Below, piece by piece: positions 8,643 to 61,696 of a stretch of DNA of 64,000 bases (position 1 is the stretch's first letter; every line of letters begins with the position of its first letter). The notes under the pieces are model-generated. The model had not been told where the DNA came from. It was given only the letters and a program-made list of their open reading frames with translations, and did no database searches. A program made the translations under genes and the position numbers. Origin of the DNA: Heterodontus francisci (lineage: Eukaryota); contig NC_090374.1 in the NCBI RefSeq assembly GCF_036365525.1, forward strand, positions 154,102,502-154,166,501. The letters run 5' to 3'.

Positions 8643-11600
8643 GGGCTGGATTTTACTAGCGCACTACAACACACGGCGGTCCGCCTACGTGCAGCAGCCA
8701 CCACTGAATCCCTGTGATATTTCGCGCGGGAGCTCATTAAAAATGAAGGCACGGAGCGACCACCCCCGATGACATAGAGGGGGCAGGCGCTCTGTATCTG
8801 GCAATGGCGTCCAGCACCACCACGCAGGCACCGGCATCATTTTTAAACAGCTTCAAGCCCTTCACTAGCATTTGCATTTTTGAAAGGAACAAACGTTCAA
8901 AATTAAAGTTACACATGTAGTAACATTTTCACACCCCTCACACACACACCCATGGAAGATTCAAATTATTAAATGCCCATTTCCCCCAAAAAACCTTTAT
9001 GCAGATTCCGACCTTACCGCACCCCCCACCCCAAACTTTATTAACTTGTATCCTTAATCCCTTCCCACCATCCCCCCCCCCACCAATCAAAAGACTGTTC
9101 CCTGCTCCTTCCCCCGCCCCACCAGTGTCTTGCCTTGGTTCCCCAAACAGGGAACTTCCAGCCACCAGTCAGAATATCATCGAGGAACTGCCACCTGGTC
9201 TAGGTAGGTTTATTTACATTTCTTTGAATATCTTTTGCAACGCAAATAAAGGCCCCACTTCAGGGGCCGCAACGAGGCCTCGCCGCTGCCAGTAAAATGT
9301 GACAGGGCCTTCTCGGTGTCAGGGGTCGAGGCGGGTCTCTCCCGGCAGAATTTTACGGACCCCCCTGCCACGACCCCTGCTGTTAAAATTCAATCAACAT
9401 GCGTAGCATTAAATCCACTACGCGATGTGTTTCAACCGTGGACTACCTTGCCAAGGACAAAGCCAACCTACTGTTTCTGCAGGAGTGTGGAATACCACAC
9501 CTCAGCACCACCAGGCAATGGTTGCGATGGTGGTCCTATGGGCCATCGATCTGGTCAGGGGTAATGATTCCCATTCCTCCGGCCTGGGTATTCTGCTGCG
9601 GAGAGCTACTTCACCAACTCCGAAGTTAAGGGCGATCGCCTCCTCGTAGCAGATGCTACGTAGCAGATGCTCTGCTCCGGTTGATCAATGTGTACGCCCC
9701 GGTTCAACGCGGCGAGCGGCTAACCGTCTTCCAGCAGCTCCCACTGCTGCTGTTCCAGGCCGGTCATTCTAGGTGGTGACTTCAACTGTATCATCGATGC
9801 AGCTGGATGATCCGGCAGGGACGACAGCAAACTGGACACTACGTCCAGATTCCTAATAGAAACAGTGAAAGATGCCAAACTGCACGACGTCTTCAGCAAA
9901 CCAGCTGATGGAGCACTGTGTAGATAACATGGTCAAGAACGGACGGGTCTGCCCATTCCAGGATTGACTTCCTGTTTGTGTCCCGTGCTGTCACGGTCGG
10001 ATCAACCGACGTCAAGCCAGTGTTCTTCTCCGACCATTGCCTCTTTTGGCCAATTGTCACTTACAGGACAACTAGCGGGTAGGCAGGGGGTCATGGAAGC
10101 TCAATGTTACACTGCTAACCCCAGAGAACGCAGAGGAACTCAAAAGGGATTACAAAGGTTGGAAAACCATGAAACCACTCTTTCAGTCTCCAGTCCACTG
10201 GTGGGAGGCGATCAAGGTGAACATCAAGAGGTTCTTCATCCACAAAGGTGTTCAGAGGGTGAGAGAGAGACAGAGGGAAATGTCCCGACTCCAGAAAAGT
10301 ATGCAAAATCTGCTCCGGCTGCAGTCGATGGGGATCGAGGTCAAGGAGGACCTCCATGAGATGAAGAGCTAGCAGGTCTCGCTCTTTGCCACGGAGGCCT
10401 CTAAGATCATCTTCCGGTCCAGAGTCTGCTCCATTGAACAGGATGAGACGTGCTCGCGTTACTTCTTCCAAAAGGTACACAGAGAGAGCTCTGTGATCAG
10501 CAGCCTGAAGGAAGAGGATGGCTCGGTAACGTCTTCGCAGTCCGACATACTAAGGACCAGCAAATCCTTTTGTGCTGGGCTGTATGACTCGAAGTCCAAA
10601 GACAGCAGAGCCTCCCAGTCCTTCCTGTCATCTATCACAGAGGTCTTAGATGACAGCATGAGGGAGAGACTGGACAAGCCGTTAACTCTGGATGAGCTGA
10701 CAAAGGCCGTCAAGTCCTTCGAGATAAGTAAAATTCCCGGAAGCGTTGGCTTACCGGTTGAGTTGTATTCCGCCCTGTGGCACTGGGTCGGCCCAGACCT
10801 GCTGGAAGTATATAAGAGTATGCTTCTGGCCGGCAGCATATCAGAATCCATGAGGAAAAGCATCATCACCCTCATCTACAAGCGGAAGGGGGAGAGGGCA
10901 GAAATCAGAAATTGGCGGCCCATCTCACTGCTTAATGTTGACTACAAGATTCTGTCCAAAGTCATAGCCAGTTGAGTCAAGTCTGCTCTGGAGTTGGTGA
11001 TTCACCCTGACCAGACCTGCACTGTATCCGGCAGGAAGATCTCTGATAGTCTCGCGCTACTCAGGGATACGATCACCTATGTACGGGACAGGAGAGTGGA
11101 CACCTGTCTCATCAGCCTGGACCAGGAGAAGGCTTTTGACAGGATATCACACACCTACATGATGGGCGTGCTTTCCAAAATGGGGTTTGGGGAGGGAATT
11201 TGCAATTGGATCAAACTGCTGTACACAAACATCAGTAGCGCAGTCTCAATCAATGGGTGGGAATCAGAAAGTTTCCCGATCCAATCTGGAGTCAGACAGG
11301 GCTGTCCTCTCTCCCCTGCCTTGTTTGTTTGCTGTATTGAACCCTTTGCTGAGTTTATTAGGAAGGATGCAAGCATAAGAGGGATGACAATCCCAGGCAG
11401 TGGAGGCACTCAGGTTAAAACCTCCCTGTACATGGATGACGTCGCCGTCTTCTGCTCGGATCCACTGTCCATTTGCAGACTGATGAGCATCTGCGACCAG
11501 TTCGAACTGGACTTGGGAGCCAAAGTTAACCACAGCAAGAGCGAGGTCATGTTCTTTGGGAACTGAGCTGACCGATCCTTTGTCCCATTCACCGTCAGGT

Positions 11601-12717
11601 CAGACTACCTGAAGGTGTTGGGGATATGGTTCGGAAGGGCCGTGGCTTGCACCAAAACCTGGAAGGAGCGAGTAGCCAGGATACACCATAAGCTGAGCAT
11701 ATGGGGGCAGCGATCTCTCTCCATTGTGGGTAAGAACCTGGTCATCAAATACGAGGTGCTCACATTGTTGCTCCATCCAGTTGGACCGTGCCATACCACC
11801 TATCCTTCGTGGAAAGGTTTCTGCGGAAAAACACCTTTGACCACCAATCCATCAGGCAGTGGTCTACACGGAATGTCCTCAAGGCCCTACAGAAAAAGGA
11901 GATGGTGGATCCTGTCGAACAGACTGCCAAAATCATTTGGCAGAATGCCTCATCCCCAGAACTCTCAAACAATCACCAAGATGTAGCTTGGCTGGTGGTG
12001 AGAAGAACCCTCCCCATCAGATCCTTCCTGCACGCTCGGAGTCTCACCCCCTCCGCACAATGCCCTCGAGGTGGCTGTGGTGGGGAAGAGACGGTTGCCC
12101 ACCTCCTTCTGGAATGTGTCTTTGCAAAACAGGTGTGGAAAGAGGTGAAGTGGTTTTTGTCGAGGTTCATCCCAAGCAGCTTTGTAACACAGGAGTCTGT
12201 GCTCTACGGGCTGTTCCCAGGGATGCACACCGAGATAAACATCAATTGCTGCTGGACAAGTATCAATTCGGTGAAAGATGCCCTTTGGTCTGCCCGAAAC
12301 TTGCTGGTCTTCTGGCGCAAAGAGTTGTCCACGACCGAATGTTGCAGACTGGCACATTCCAAGTTCCAGAACTACATGCTGAGGGACGCGCTAAAGTTTG
12401 GGGCAGCCACAGCAAAGGCTCAATGGGGAAAGACCACTGTGTAAGATCCCCCCGCCAAGGTGAACTGAGGGGCTGGATCCATGGAAAACCCCTTGAACTG
12501 TAGTCAGAAAATATTTGCTGTAAAATGTACATGGCATTTAAAATGAAATGGAAGGTTTGTGAGGCAACTCACTCCTGTATTGAAGGAAACTGCTTTCCTT
12601 TACAGTCTTTGTATTGTTTGACTTCGTGCTTTTTGGAACTGTTTTGTAATGTATTTTTTTACAGATTTTTATGAATAAAGTGTATTTTGGGAAAAAAAAG
12701 CTGTTAAAATCCAGCCC
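8643..12717. mobile_element. Non-autonomous Harbinger MITE, right TIR split by a Tx1 insertion
   Basis: Left TIR gggctggattttac. Right TIR gttaaaatccagccc (12703-12717). Interior related to 18715-19483 in the opposite orientation. Confidence 0.8.
9390..12699 (+). mobile_element. Tx1-clade (L1 group) LINE, ORF2 only (APE endonuclease, RT, zf-RVT), disrupted
   Basis: Endonuclease: NMRSIKS..LLFLQEC, GGDFNC, SDHC. RT: NWRPISLLNVDYKILSK, LDQEKAFDRI, GVRQGCPLSP, YMDDV. C-terminal CPRGGCGGEETVAHLLLEC. AATAAA plus A-tail. TSD gctgttaaaat at 9379-9389 and 12700-12710. Confidence 0.92.
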
Positions 12718-16237: not shown

Positions 16238-17428
16238 TTCTTTGGGCCTCCTTATCTCGAGAGACAATGGATACGTGCCTGGAGGTGGTCAGTGGTTTGT
16301 GAAGCAGCGCCTGGAGTGGCTATAAAGGCCAATTCTAGAGTGACAGGCTCTTCCACAGGTGCTGCAGAGAAATTTGTTTGTCGGGGCTGTTACACAGTTG
16401 GCTCTCCCCTTGCGCCTCTGTCTTTTTTCCTGCCAACTACTAAGTCTCTTCGACTCGCCACATTTTAGCCCTGTCTTTATGGCTGCCCGCCAGCTCTGGC
16501 GAACGCTGGCAACTGACTCCCACAACTTGTGATCAATATCACAGGATTTCATGTCGCGTTTGCAGACGTCTTTAAAGCGGAGATGTGGACGACCGGTGGG
16601 TCTGATACCAGTGGCGAGCTCGCTGTACAATGTGTCTTTGGGGATCCTGCCATCTTCCATGCAGCTCACATGGCCAAGCCATCTCAAGCGCCGCTGACTC
16701 AGTAGTGTGTACAAGCTGGGGATGTTGGCCGCCTCGAGGACTTCTGTGTTGGAGATACGGTCCTGCCACCTGATGCCAAGTATTCTCCGGAGGCAGCGAA
16801 GATGGAATGAATTGCGACGTCGCCCTTGGCTGGCATACGTTGTCCCGGCCTCGCTGCCATAGAGCAAGGTACTGAGGACACAGGCCTGATACACTCGGAC
16901 TTTTGTGTTCCGTGTCAGTGCGCCATTTTCTCACACTCTCTTGGCCAGTCTGGACATAGCAGTGGAAGCCTTTCCCATGCGCTTGTTGATTTCTGCATCT
17001 AGAGACAGGTTACTGGTGATAGTTGAGCCTAGGTAGGTGAACTCTTGAACCACTTCCAGAGCGTGGTCGCCAATATTGATGGATGGAGCATTTCTGACGT
17101 CCTGCCCCATGATGTTCGTTTTCTTGAGGCTGATGGTTAGGCCAAATTCATTGCAGGCAGCCGCAAACCTGTCGATGAGACTCTGCAGACACTCTTCAGT
17201 GTGAGATGTTAAAGCAGCATCGTCAGCAAAGAGGAGTTCCCTGATGAGGACTTTCCGTACTTTGGACTTCGCTCTTAGACGGGCAAGGTTGAACAACCTG
17301 CCCCCTGATCTTGTGTGGAGGAAAATTCCTTCTTCAGAGGACTTGAACGCATGTGAAAGCAGCAGGGAGAAGAAAATCCCAAAAAGTGTAGGTGCGAGAA
17401 CACAGCCCTGTTTCACGCCACTCAGGAT
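16238..17428 (-). mobile_element. RTE-clade LINE, 5'-truncated (copy 1)
   Basis: GVKQGCVLAP, LLFADDAAL, RRLRWLGHV, C-terminal CSTCGRACHSRIGLYSH. Nearly identical to copies 2 and 3. Confidence 0.93.
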
Positions 17429-33270: not shown

Positions 33271-34455
33271 CTTTCCTATCCTGAGTGGCGTGAAACAGGG
33301 CTGTGTTCTCGCACCCACACTTTTTGGGATTTTCTTCTCCCTGCTGCTTTCACATGCGTTCAAGTCCTCTGAAGAAGGAATTTTCCTCCACACAAGATCA
33401 GGGGGCAGGTTGTTCAACCTTGCCCGTCTAAGAGTGAAGTCCAAAGTACGGAAAGTCCTCATCAGGGAACTCCTCTTTGCTGACGATGCTGCTTTAACAT
33501 CCCACACAGAAGAGTGTCTGCAGAGTCTCATCGACAGGTTTGCGGCTGCCTGCAATGAATTTGGCCTAACCATCAGCCTCAAGAAAACGAACATCATGGG
33601 GCAGGACGTCAGAAATGCTCCATCCATCAATATTGGCGACCACACTCTGGAAGTGGTTCAAGAGTTCACCTATCACCAGTAACCTGTCTCTAGATGCAGA
33701 AATCAACAAGCGCATGGGAAAGGCTTCCACTGCTATGTCCAGACTGGCCAAGAGAGTGTGGGAAAATGGCGCACTGACACGGAACACAAAAGTCCGAGTG
33801 TATCAAGCCTGTGTCCTCAGTACCTTGCTCTATGGCAGCGAGGCCTGGACAACGTATGTGAGCCAAGAGCGACGTCTCAATTCATTCCATCTTCGCTGCC
33901 TCCGGAGAATACTTGGCATCAGGTGGCAGGACCGCATCTCCAACACAGAAGTCCTCGAGGCGGCCAACATCCCCAGCTTATACACACTACTGAGTCAGCG
34001 GCGCTTGAGATGGCTTGGCCATGTGAGCCGCATGGAAGATGGCAGGATCCCCAAAGACACATTGTACAGCGAGCTCGCCACTGGTATCAGACCCACCGGC
34101 CGTCCATGTCTCCGCTTTAAAGACATCTGCAAACGCGACATGAAATCCTGTGACATTGATCACAAGTTGTGGGAGTCAGTTGCCAGCGTTCGCCAGAGCT
34201 GGCGGGCAGCCATAACGACGGGGCTGAAGTGTGGCGAGTCGAAGAGACTTAGTAGTTGGCAGGAAAAAAGACAGAGGCGCAACGGGAGAGCCAACTGTGT
34301 AACAGCCCCGACAAACAAATTTCTCTGCAGCACCTGTGGAAGAGCCTGTCACTCTAGAATTGGCCTTTATAGCCACTCCAGGCGCTGCTTCACAAACCAC
34401 TGACCACCTCCAGGCGCTTATCCATTGTCTCTCAAGATAAGGAGGCCAAAGAAGA
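33271..34455 (+). mobile_element. RTE-clade LINE, 5'-truncated (copy 2)
   Basis: Same protein as copy 1. 15-bp TSD acacaatatggaaac (33252-66 and 34456-70). A 14-nt deletion near 33670 shifts the frame. (GAA)n tail. Confidence 0.95.
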
Positions 34456-34599
34456 ACACAATATGGAAACAGGCTATTCAGCCCACCAGTCCATGTTGGT
34501 GCTTATCCTCCACATGAGCAGTAGTAGTACCCACCCTGTTTGCATATCTCTTTCTTTGAAACACCTGTCACAATTTTACTGTCAATGGAAAATGTGGTA

Positions 34600-58161: not shown

Positions 58162-58433
58162 GAGGCATAGTGGCGCAGTGGCTGGCACCACAGCCTCACA
58201 GCTCCAGTAACCTGCGTTCAGTTCTGGGTACTGCCTGTGTGGGTTTCCTCTGGGTACTCTGGTTTCCTCCCACATGCCAAAGATATGTGGGTTGATAGGT
58301 AAATTGGCCATTGTAAAAATTTGTCCCTAGTGTAGGTAGGAGAATTGTGGGGATGTGAGAGGGATTAATGTAGGATTAGTATGGATGGTTGGGCTGAAGG
58401 GCCTGTTTTGGTGCTGTATCTCTCCATGACTCT
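58162..58433 (+). mobile_element. Diverged HE1-type V-SINE
   Basis: A box tggcgcagtgg, partial V-domain, tail. Confidence 0.8.
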
Positions 58434-58651
58434 ATTACAGTCTGGATTTAAAACAGCATGCATACCTTGGCATATTTAATTACTTTCAGCCACAGCATAA
58501 TGATCACAGCAGCATGACGTCATGGCAGTTGGACACCTCGCTTCTGGAGGCACAGGAATACTTTATAGAATGTTGGGCCCAGCACCTTTAAAATGAGATG
58601 TTAATCTGAGATCCTATTTGCTGTCTTAGGTGGATGCAATATATTCCATGA
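58378..58651 (+). repeat. Left copy of a 274-bp direct repeat flanking the RTE
   Basis: Matches 61332-61605 with two substitutions seen by eye. Confidence 0.95.
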
Positions 58652-61331
58652 ATGAGAATGGGCAGAGACTGCTTGAGTTGTGTACCTATCATAACCTCTG
58701 CATCACCAACTCGTTCTTTCACACTAAACCCTGTCACCAGGTTTCATGGAGGCACCCAAGATCGTGTCATTGGCACCAGCTAGACCTCATTGTCACAAGG
58801 TGAGCCGCCTTAAACAGTGTTCAAATCACACGCAGCTTCCACAGTGTGGACTGCGACACCGATCACTCCCTGGTGTGCAGCAAGGTTAGACTCAGACCAA
58901 AGAAGTTGCATCATTCCAAGCAGAAGGGCCACCCGCGCATCAACACGAGCAGAATTTCTCACCCACAGCTGTTACAAAAATTTCTAAATTCACTTGTGTC
59001 AACCCTTCAAAACACTCCCACAGGGGATGCTGAGACCAAGTGGGCCCACATCAGAGACGCCATCTATGAGTCAGCTTTGACCACCTACGGCAAAAGTGCG
59101 AGGAGAAATGCAGACCGGTTTCAACCTCATAATGAAGAGCTGGAACCTGTCATAGCTGCTAAGCGCATTGCACTGTTGAACTACAAGAAAGCCCCCAACG
59201 AGTTAACATCTGTAGCACTTAAAGCAGCCAGAAGCACTGCACAAAGAACAGCCAGGCGCTGCTCAAATGACTACTGGCAACACCTATGCAGTCATATTCA
59301 GCTGGCCTCAGACACCAGAAACATCAGAGGAATGTATGATGGCATTAAGAGAGCTTTTGGGCCAACCATCAAGAAGATCGCCCCCCTCAAATCTAAATCA
59401 GGGGACATAATAACTGACCAACGCAAACAAATGGACCGCTGGGTTGAGCACTACCTAGAACTGTACTCCAGGGAGAATGTTGTCACTGAGACTGCCCTCA
59501 ATGCAGCCCAGCCTCTACCAGTCATGGATGAGCTGGACATACAGCCAACCAAATCGGAACTCAGTGATGCCATTGATTCTCTAGCCAGCGGAAAAGCCCC
59601 TGGGAAGGACAGCATTACCCCTGAAATAATCAAGAGTGCCAAGCCTGCTATACTCTCAGCACTACATGAACTGCTATGCCTGTGCTGGGACGAGGGAGCA
59701 GTACCTCAGGACATGCGCGATGCCAATATCATCACCCTCTATAAAAACAAAGGTGACCGAGGTGACTGCAACAACTACCGTGGAATCTCCCTGCTCAACA
59801 TAGTGAGGAAAGTCTTTGCTCGAGTCGTTCTAAACAGGCTCCAGAAGCTGGCCGAGCGCGTCTACCCTGAGGCACAATGTGGCTATCGTGCAGAGATAGA
59901 CCGTTGACATGCTGTTCTCCCTTCGTCAGATACAGGAGAAATGCCGCGAATAACAGATGCCCCTCTACGTTGCTTTCATTGATCTCACCAAAGCCTTTGA
60001 CCTCGTCAGCAGACGTGGTCTCTTCAGACTACTAGAAAAGATTGGATGCCCACCAAAGCTACTAAGTATCATCACCTCATTCCATGACAATATGAAAGGC
60101 ACAATTCAACATAGCGGCACCTCATCAGACCCCTTTCCAATCCTGAGTGGCGTGAAACAGGGCTGTGTTCTTGCACCCACACTTTTTGGGATTTTTTTTC
60201 TCCCTGCTGCTCTCACATGCGTTCAAGTCTTCAGAAGAAGGAATTTTCCTCCACACAAGATCAGGGGGCAGGTTGTTCAACCTTGCCCGTCTAAGAGCGA
60301 AGTCCAAAGTACGGAAAGTCCACATCAGGGAACTCCTCTTTGCTGACGATGCTGCTTTAACATCTCACACTGAAGAGTGCCTGCAGAGTCTCATCGACAG
60401 GTTTGCGGCTGCCTGCAACGAATTTGGCCTAACCATCAGCCTCAAGAAAACAAACATCATGGGGCAGGCCGTCAGAAATGCTCCATTCATCAATATTGGC
60501 GACCACACTCTGGAAGTGGTTCAAGAGTTCACCTACCTAGGCTCAACTATCACCAGTAACCTGTCTCTAGATGCAGAAATCAACAAGCGCATGGGAAAGG
60601 CTTCCACTGCTATGTCCAGACTGGCCAAGAGAGTGTGGGAAAATGGCGCACTGACACGGAACACAAAAGTCTGAGTGTATCAAGCCTGTGTCCTCAGTAC
60701 CTTGCTCTATGGCAGCGAGGCCTGGACAACGTATGTCAGCCAAGAGCGACGTCTCAATTCATTCTATCTTCGCTGCCTCCGGAGAATACTTGGCATCAGG
60801 TGACAGGACCGTATCTCCAACACAGAAGTCCTTGAGGCGGCCAACATCCCCAGCTTATACACACTACTGAGTTAGCGGCGCTTGAGATGGCTTGGCCATG
60901 TGAGCCGCATGGAAGATGGCAGGATCCCCAAAGACACATTGTACAGCGAGCTCGCCACTGGTATCAGACCCATTGGCCGTCCATGTCTCCGCTTTAAAGA
61001 CGTCTGCAAACGCGACATGAAATCCTGTGACATTGATCACAAGTCGTGGGAGTCAGTTGCCAGCGTTCGCCAGAGCTGGCGGACAGCCATAAAGGCGGGG
61101 CTAAAGTGTAGCGAGTCGAAGAGACTTAGCAGTTGGCAGGAAAATAGACAGAGGCGCAAGGGAAGAGCCAACTGTGTAACAGCCCCGACAATCAAATTTT
61201 TCTGCAGCACCTGTGGAAGAGCCTGTCACTCTAGAATTGGCCTTTACAGCCACTCCAGGCGCTGCTCCACACACCACCGACCTCCTCCAGGCGCGTATCC
61301 ATTGTCTCTCGAGATAAGGAGGCCAAAGAAG
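58652..61331 (+). mobile_element. RTE-clade LINE (copy 3), part of the endonuclease plus RT
   Basis: NENGQRLLELC, DCDTDHSLV, CNNYRGISLL, FIDLTKAFD, GVKQGC, FADD, C-terminal zinc finger. Several stops and frameshifts. Confidence 0.95.
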
Positions 61332-61605
61332 AGTATGGATGGTTGGGCTGAAGGGCCTGTTTTGGTGCTGTATCTCTCCATGACTCTATTACAGTCTGGA
61401 TTTAAAACAGCATGCATACCTTGGCATATTTAATTACTTTCAGCCACAGCATAATGATCACAGCAGCATGACATCATGGCGGTTGGACACCTCGCTTCTG
61501 GAGGCACAGGAATACTTTATAGAATGTTGGGCCCAGCACCTTTAAAATGAGATGTTAATCTGAGATCCTATTTGCTGTCTTAGGTGGATGCAATATATTC
61601 CATGA
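61332..61605 (+). repeat. Right copy of the 274-bp direct repeat
   Basis: Follows the RTE (GAA)n tail directly and continues into the Deu-SINE downstream. Confidence 0.95.
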
Positions 61606-61696
61606 CACAATTTGAAGAAGAGCAGGGGAGTTATCTCTGGTGTCCTGGCAAAAAATTATCCCTCAACCAACATCAATAAAGCAGATTATCTGATTA

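What the first reader, a model, noticed from the sequence alone, without database searches (positions are those of the whole stretch)
58378..61605. RTE insertion with a 274-bp target-site duplication
Seen: 58378-58651 and 61332-61605 match except two substitutions at CpG-type sites, and abut the RTE exactly. The left copy continues the upstream V-SINE and the right copy continues the downstream Deu-SINE, so this is duplicated target DNA and not transduced sequence. The last 4 nt (atga) probably overlap the RTE 5' end. The sister copy at 33271 has a normal 15-bp TSD. Inference: second-strand cleavage or strand invasion ~270 bp from the first nick, far beyond usual LINE TSD lengths. The differences between copies argue against an assembly artefact and date the insertion as recent.
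Basis: partly seen in the sequence, partly recalled or inferred. Interest (0 to 1): 0.7.

Follow-up and report, generated by a model that had tools for sequence, protein, structure and literature searches.

The report
RTE jumping gene's 274-base landing scar
A dead jumping gene sits exactly between two copies of 274 bases of host DNA, likely duplicated when it landed; about one in eight of its sister copies in this genome carries a similarly over-long scar, so this is the far tail of a known process rather than a one-off.

Summary
Observation confirmed. The 274-bp copies (272/274 identical, both differences at CpG) abut a 5'-truncated RTE-type LINE. The duplication starts on the family's nick signature (TT at -13/-12, T|A), at a SINE position where 7 of 246 sister copies also inserted. 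It ends in a 4-nt microhomology with the element. Its core was found nowhere else in the genome. So it is very likely a real target-site duplication (TSD). It is not unique: of 242 other non-inverted copies, 29 have TSDs >20 bp, 8 have >=100 bp, and two reach 225 and 349 bp; the mode is 9-12 bp. All 14 scorable 5'-inverted copies have short TSDs (7-14 bp). The long tail likely comes from host repair finishing the 5' end; end extension and a distant second nick are not separable here. 'Recent' is overstated: the copy looks older than 93 of 130 sisters. Reads and an empty allele gave no verdict. Long TSDs are known for L1, and this scan noted similar single loci (about 130-476 bp) in other genomes. 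The added result is a family-wide germline frequency.

The parts
58164..58435 (+). Older tRNA-type SINE (V-SINE label recalled) in whose 3' part the RTE nicked; its tail is the start of the duplicated block
58365..58378 (+). Family nick signature: TT at -13/-12 and T|A at the first base of the duplication
   Evidence: T at -13/-12 in 67-73% of 45 short and 72% of 25 long TSDs; T at -1 84%/76%, A at the first base 78%/84%
58378..58651 (+). Left copy of the 274-bp target-site duplication
58436..58585 (.). Core of the duplicated block, found only twice in the assembly (here and in the right copy)
58648..58651 (+). ATGA microhomology shared by target and RTE 5' end
58648..61331 (+). 5'-truncated, decayed RTE-type LINE (last 2.68 kb of a ~4.68-kb family element; end of APE domain, RT, short 3' UTR ending in AAG/GAA repeats)
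61332..61605 (+). Right copy of the 274-bp duplication
61606..61690 (+). Continuation of an older SINE-like repeat (Deu-SINE label recalled) whose head ends the duplicated block
33271..34456 (+). Sister RTE copy with 15-bp TSD and 4 extra bases
16238..17428 (-). Sister RTE copy without detectable TSD

Best explanation
The 274-bp repeat flanking this truncated RTE-type LINE is very likely its own target-site duplication, begun at the element's normal nick site and likely made long by host DNA repair at the 5' end. Shown: the repeat starts at a TT..T|A site typical of the family, the element's 3' tail joins there, and the element's truncated 5' end shares 4 bases (ATGA) with the far end of the repeat. 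Inferred: the endonuclease nicked the bottom strand at 58377/8 and reverse transcription stopped after 2.68 kb. The new DNA end then annealed through ATGA to an upstream target end reaching ~270 bp past the nick instead of the usual ~11 bp. I favour slightly (about 0.5 against 0.4) that this end was lengthened by replication-type repair synthesis over a second nick placed 270 bp away. The same route would explain the heavy tail of TSD lengths across the family.
For: Exact abutment and 272/274 identity. Core found only twice. Continuity with the interrupted SINEs. Nick signature shared by short and long TSDs, matching the T-stretch-plus-TA signature published for RTE-clade LINEs (PMC6007223, PMC13295347; passages). 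7 of 246 sisters have 3' flanks starting within 0-2 bases of the same SINE position. Family tail: 24 of 203 copies >20 bp in the first set, replicated by 5 of 39 in a later set; pooled 29 of 242 (12%, CI 8-17%), 8 of 242 >=100 bp (3.3%), 2 of 242 >=200 bp. Smooth power-law-like tail (alpha about 1.85, n=28) without 10-bp periodicity. All 14 scorable 5'-inverted copies have 7-14-bp TSDs, so where the second end primed, it lay close to the first nick.
Against: No read or empty-allele support: the run with the highest word share had zero depth over most of the core and no contig spanned a junction. The two copies show 0 non-CpG differences in 268 sites where 5-7 are expected from the element's own decay (P 0.001 for 7.0; about 0.007 for 5, my arithmetic). 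The other long TSDs show no clear deficit at the 2% threshold (16 vs 19.6), but do at the 5% threshold (7 vs 23.9 over 12 loci including this one). The inverted-copy contrast is weak (0/14 vs 29/133 TSD-bearing copies, one-sided P 0.039, two-sided 0.073; vs all 242 P 0.18) and is also expected under a distant-nick model. Longer microhomology in long TSDs is not significant (15/25 vs 17/45, P 0.086).
Confidence: 0.82

Rival explanations
1. Same TSD, but made by a second-strand nick ~270 bp downstream (host- or element-made), with unwinding and fill-in of the stagger.
For: Proposed for the large L1 TSDs of NER-deficient cells (PMC5223499, passages). Fits all junction features seen.
Against: Needs 270 bp of duplex unwound. 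No length periodicity or preferred spacing. Not separable from end extension with these data.
Confidence: 0.35
2. The RTE inserted with an ordinary short TSD, and the 274-bp block was duplicated later by a template switch or exchange between filled and empty alleles (or later gene conversion made a true TSD look young).
For: The copies are more alike than the element's age predicts (0 vs 5-7 expected non-CpG differences). Recombination between RTE copies does make duplications in this genome (3.17-kb unit in L261).
Against: Both ends coincide with the element's ends, and the left copy is not preceded by RTE sequence. Each copy has its own CpG decay. In 1.49 Mb scanned without reference to RTE ends, 14 of 23 near-identical direct repeats listed bracket an RTE, 5 are RTE sequence themselves and 4 are other.
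Confidence: 0.07
3. Assembly artefact: filled and empty haplotypes merged.
For: No read support obtained. Two differences could be allelic.
Against: It would need an invented junction at 58648-58651 that happens to carry a microhomology. 29 sister loci show the same anatomy, and the 25 long TSDs profiled share the nick motif.
Confidence: 0.04
4. 3' transduction, or insertion into a pre-existing tandem duplication.
For: None specific.
Against: No donor site elsewhere. The right copy runs on into the flanking repeat. Landing exactly on the junction of an existing tandem pair is improbable, and the start fits the nick motif. Copies in tandem-repeat flanks were removed before counting (7 + 2 copies).
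Confidence: 0.03

Closest known systems
Long TSDs (L-TSD >20 bp; >100 bp) of de novo human L1 insertions (PMC4245944, PMC5223499, PMC2912911; passages)
   Same: 5'-truncated LINE, endonuclease-type first nick, 5' microhomology or extra bases, TSDs of hundreds of bases. >100 bp in under 10% of HeLa events and in most events in NER-deficient cells.
   Different: Here an RTE-type element, in inherited genomic copies of a non-mammalian vertebrate, at 12% >20 bp and 3% >=100 bp. The genomic L1 survey collected only 5-30-bp TSDs.
[quoted passage not shown]
   Same: Same geometry; supplies the favoured mechanism.
   Different: 1-10 kb, somatic or cancer cells; here 21-349 bp, germline.
RTE-clade LINE insertion signature and TSD range (PMC6007223, PMC13295347, PMC4245944; passages)
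   Same: T-stretch about one helical turn upstream, T|A at the nick, TSD peak 10-12 bp.
   Different: Those two RTE surveys searched only perfect repeats of 10-49 bp in 200-bp flanks, so a tail like this could not appear.
C. elegans Rte-1 (Youngman 1996) and rotifer R9 (Gladyshev and Arkhipova 2009)
   Same: R9's title states an exceptionally long TSD (seen only in a reference list). A ~200-bp repeat around the founding Rte-1 copy and 126 bp for R9 are recalled; neither paper could be read.
   Different: R9 is site-specific with a fixed length (recalled); here lengths vary smoothly.

Membership tests
TPRT target-site duplication | Direct repeat abutting both element ends | tested here: met
TPRT target-site duplication | Repeat starts at the element's endonuclease signature | tested here: met
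TPRT target-site duplication | Repeat is local target DNA with no donor elsewhere | tested here: met
TPRT target-site duplication | Empty site has one copy | tested here: inconclusive
   no cover of the core in 4 of 4 runs; no second allele in the assembly
TPRT target-site duplication | Divergence of the two copies matches the element's age | tested here: inconclusive
   CpG fits (2 vs 1.2 expected), non-CpG is low (0 vs 5-7):
RTE-clade non-LTR retrotransposon | One long ORF of ~1,000-1,070 aa with APE endonuclease and RT | tested here: met
   1,069-codon frame across copies; PF03372 and PF00078 in a sister copy; PF00078 in this copy; homologues mostly ~1,045 aa, 60-69% identical, named ones from lancelet, shrimp, sea star, snail, oyster and a carp
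RTE-clade non-LTR retrotransposon | Very short 3' UTR ending in A-rich short repeats (PMC1291365) | tested here: met
   about 55 nt, ending in AAG/GAA repeats
RTE-clade non-LTR retrotransposon | TSD peak 10-12 bp with T-stretch/TA signature | tested here: met
RTE-clade non-LTR retrotransposon | RT phylogeny groups with named RTE elements | not tested
   No named RTE reference came from any call; the clade label rests on structure and recall

The most novel reading that the evidence does not exclude
This RTE family makes long duplications as a regular germline outcome. Its own second cut is fixed at ~11 bp (14 of 14 twin-primed copies), and in about one insertion in eight host replication-repair extends the upstream end by tens to hundreds of bases. 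With roughly 10^5 copies, that would be about 3,000 duplications >=100 bp (near 0.9 Mb in all TSDs >20 bp) in one genome. That is a natural data set on how the second strand of LINE insertions is resolved, invisible to surveys capped at 30-49 bp.
Probability: 0.3. Interest if true: 0.55.

Novelty: new member of a known kind. Interest (0 to 1): 0.33.

Why it matters
How the second DNA strand is cut and joined during LINE insertion is still open, and long TSDs are one of its few readouts. They were described mainly in cultured or cancer cells. Here they are a measurable inherited tail (12% >20 bp, 3% >=100 bp) of an RTE-type family, which makes the question testable from assemblies alone. They also duplicate local DNA and create repeats that could delete the element cleanly. 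The single locus duplicates only SINE pieces and ~150 bp of unannotated DNA and has no evident function.

Tried and rejected
Reads: contigs of 4 runs laid on 58345-58730 had zero depth over most of the core, and no listed piece spanned a junction; no verdict on two copies or on an empty allele. The RTE 5' part was covered in all four runs, from four organism labels. Helical periodicity of long TSD lengths: none (n=28, lowest P 0.13 over the periods tried). Long TSD vs element age or length: none (P 0.25 and 0.96). Private variants inherited from active source lineages as the cause of the age mismatch: not supported, since they are near neutral (ratio 0.84-0.89). Base composition as the cause: no (expected 6.98). 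Control family: 0 of 21 young SINE copies had a TSD over 8 bp, too few to show that the tail is RTE-specific (P 0.07). An apparent ~815-bp TSD at L249 was a tandem unit from recombination between two RTE copies. Apparent long repeats at L147, L159, L245 (two), L295 and L298 lie in tandem-repeat flanks and were dropped with L030, L176 and L233; an 88%-identical 33-bp match at L114 was counted only by its 13-bp exact part. One genome search returned nothing. Enlarging the inverted set beyond 14 was not possible within the session. Literature: nine searches listed no paper whose title or abstract start reports a long-TSD tail for a vertebrate RTE family. Subscription papers (Ichiyanagi and Okada 2008, Youngman 1996, Gilbert 2005) and all supplements were not seen, so absence from print is not established.

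Full report
Observation. The two blocks are 274 bp, differ at 2 positions (both CpG decay, one in each copy) and do not extend outward. Between them lies a 2.68-kb decayed LINE with four in-frame stops and two frameshifts and a Pfam RT match. The window lies in a 6.0-Gb genome; its repeat content suggests a cartilaginous fish (recalled, not tested).

The element. Sister copies are about 95-96% identical over the whole 2.68 kb. Several start at one shared 5' position, giving a full length near 4.68 kb with a leader of about 1.4 kb. The family has one 1,069-codon frame with APE (PF03372) and RT (PF00078) domains, a 3' UTR of about 55 nt and AAG/GAA tails. These match the RTE-clade description in PMC1291365 (passages). 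Homologues are mostly ~1,045-aa proteins at 60-69% identity, none named RTE, so clade placement by tree was not tested.

The repeat is local target DNA. A search with 58436-58647 matched in full only at the two places. The upstream SINE runs across 58378. The downstream repeat runs across 61605/6 in 14 of 23 hits, while 0 of 58 hits span the end of the left copy. The native RTE sequence before ATGA differs from the window, so ATGA is a 4-nt microhomology.

The start is a normal nick site. In 45 short (10-20 bp) and 25 long (>20 bp, this one included) TSDs the context is the same: T at -13/-12 in 67-73% and 72%, T at -1 in 84% and 76%, A at the first base in 78% and 84%. This locus has TT at 58365-6 and T|A at 58377/8. 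The signature is the one published for RTE LINEs (PMC6007223, PMC13295347; passages). Seven of 246 sisters have 3' flanks starting within 0-2 bases of the same SINE position, one of them with a 146-bp TSD.

Family distribution. The first set had 248 distinct copies with a 3' end: 15 were 5'-inverted, 21 lacked upstream flank, and 211 were scorable. Seven in tandem-repeat flanks and the focal copy were removed, leaving 203: none 87, 7-9 bp 47, 10-15 bp 42, 16-20 bp 3, 21-49 bp 13, 50-99 bp 4, 100-199 bp 5, and 225 and 349 bp. Shuffled flanks gave 7-9-bp calls in 58 of 632 pairs and never 10 or more. Two of the 31-bp cases (L138, L206) have complex junctions. A later set gave 43 new copies, 42 scorable, 2 dropped for tandem flanks, 1 inverted, and 39 others with 24, 34, 39, 61 and 111 bp among them. 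Pooled: 29 of 242 >20 bp (12%, CI 8-17%), 8 of 242 >=100 bp (3.3%, CI 1.4-6.4%), 2 of 242 >=200 bp. Copies were picked by similarity to query pieces, not by flank, but they are the top hits of each search rather than a random draw. Flanks were mostly 1-4 kb, so multi-kb duplications could be missed. Twelve incidental copies in 698 kb suggest roughly 10^5 copies genome-wide (rough); at about 9 bp per copy that is near 0.9 Mb duplicated.

Mechanism. Shown: a first nick at the family signature, 5' truncation, and a 4-nt microhomology. The tail is smooth, power-law-like and not periodic. All 14 scorable 5'-inverted copies have 7-14-bp TSDs, against 29 long among 133 TSD-bearing non-inverted copies (one-sided P 0.039, two-sided 0.073). 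Inferred: the element's own second cut lies near 11 bp, and long TSDs arise when host repair completes the 5' end. Two published routes fit: replication from the reciprocal end (bioRxiv 10.1101/2024.12.14.628481, passages) and a distant host nick (PMC5223499, passages). A distant nick would also prevent twin priming, so the inverted copies do not separate the two. I lean slightly to end extension because it needs no 270-bp unwinding.

Age, and a result against my reading. The element carries 13, 23 or 32 private non-CpG changes in 2,452 sites, depending on the threshold, and 19 of 192 CpG positions changed. It looks older than 93 of 130 copies, so it is not a recent member. The TSD copies differ at 2 of 3 CpG sites, as expected, but at 0 of 268 other sites where 5-7 are expected. 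Across the other 24 long TSDs of the first set there is no clear deficit at the 2% threshold (16 vs 19.6), though the 12 longest show one at the 5% threshold (7 vs 23.9). Chance, gene conversion between the copies, or a later duplication remain open.

Reads. Contigs from four runs did not cover the core or span a junction; no verdict.

Known and new. Long TSDs are an established class for de novo L1 inserts (PMC4245944, PMC5223499; passages), and PMC1291365 notes that L1 TSDs reach several hundred bases. Genomic surveys capped the search at 30 bp (PMC2912911) or 49 bp. A vertebrate-wide preprint calls RTE-BovB TSD lengths noisy along the tree (PMC13320814, passages). R9 was seen as a reference title only and Rte-1 as a reference only; their repeat lengths are recalled. 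PMC2887409 (passages) showed only short RTE TSDs. Supplements were not read and may bear on length tails. Earlier notes of this scan report single LINE loci with about 130, 158, 398 and 476-bp duplications in other genomes; I did not check them. Verdict: a real long TSD, a new member of a known kind. The family-wide inherited frequency is the modest addition.

Noticed in passing
L015, L007, L044, L023, L033, L236, L243, L022, L142, L041, L220, L012, L060, L276: 5'-inverted (twin-priming-type) copies: 15 of 248 in the first set, plus one later; all 14 scorable have 7-14-bp TSDs. PMC4245944 saw inversions only with L1 in human cells in its assays.
   Followed up: yes
SINE position matching window 58378 (L057, L058, L112, L128, L153, L157, L215) and 7 bases away on the other strand (L100, L217, L230, L239): One spot in the SINE's 3' part is a recurrent RTE target on both strands.
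   Followed up: partly
L261 1638-9901 (minus strand) / L249: Tandem array of a 3.17-kb unit made of RTE plus ~0.8 kb flank, consistent with unequal exchange between two RTE copies.
   Followed up: partly
L232 1647-1718 and 2669-2740: Perfect 72-bp direct repeat around 950 bp of non-RTE, low-copy repeat sequence; origin unexplained.
   Followed up: partly
L008, L031, L039, L207, L242, L252: Full-length copies share a 5' start about 1.4 kb before the long ORF, so the long leader belongs to the element.
   Followed up: partly
L009/L010 and L126/L130: Pairs of loci with the same RTE copy and flanks (segmental duplication, or an unplaced duplicate contig); counted once.
   Followed up: no
242 non-inverted copies: 109 have no detectable TSD; target deletions or blunt joins may be as common as duplications, which needs empty sites to test.
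   Followed up: no
window 10373-12444: Another decayed LINE with RT-like frames, distantly related to the RTE (30% identity over 105 aa); family not determined.
   Followed up: no
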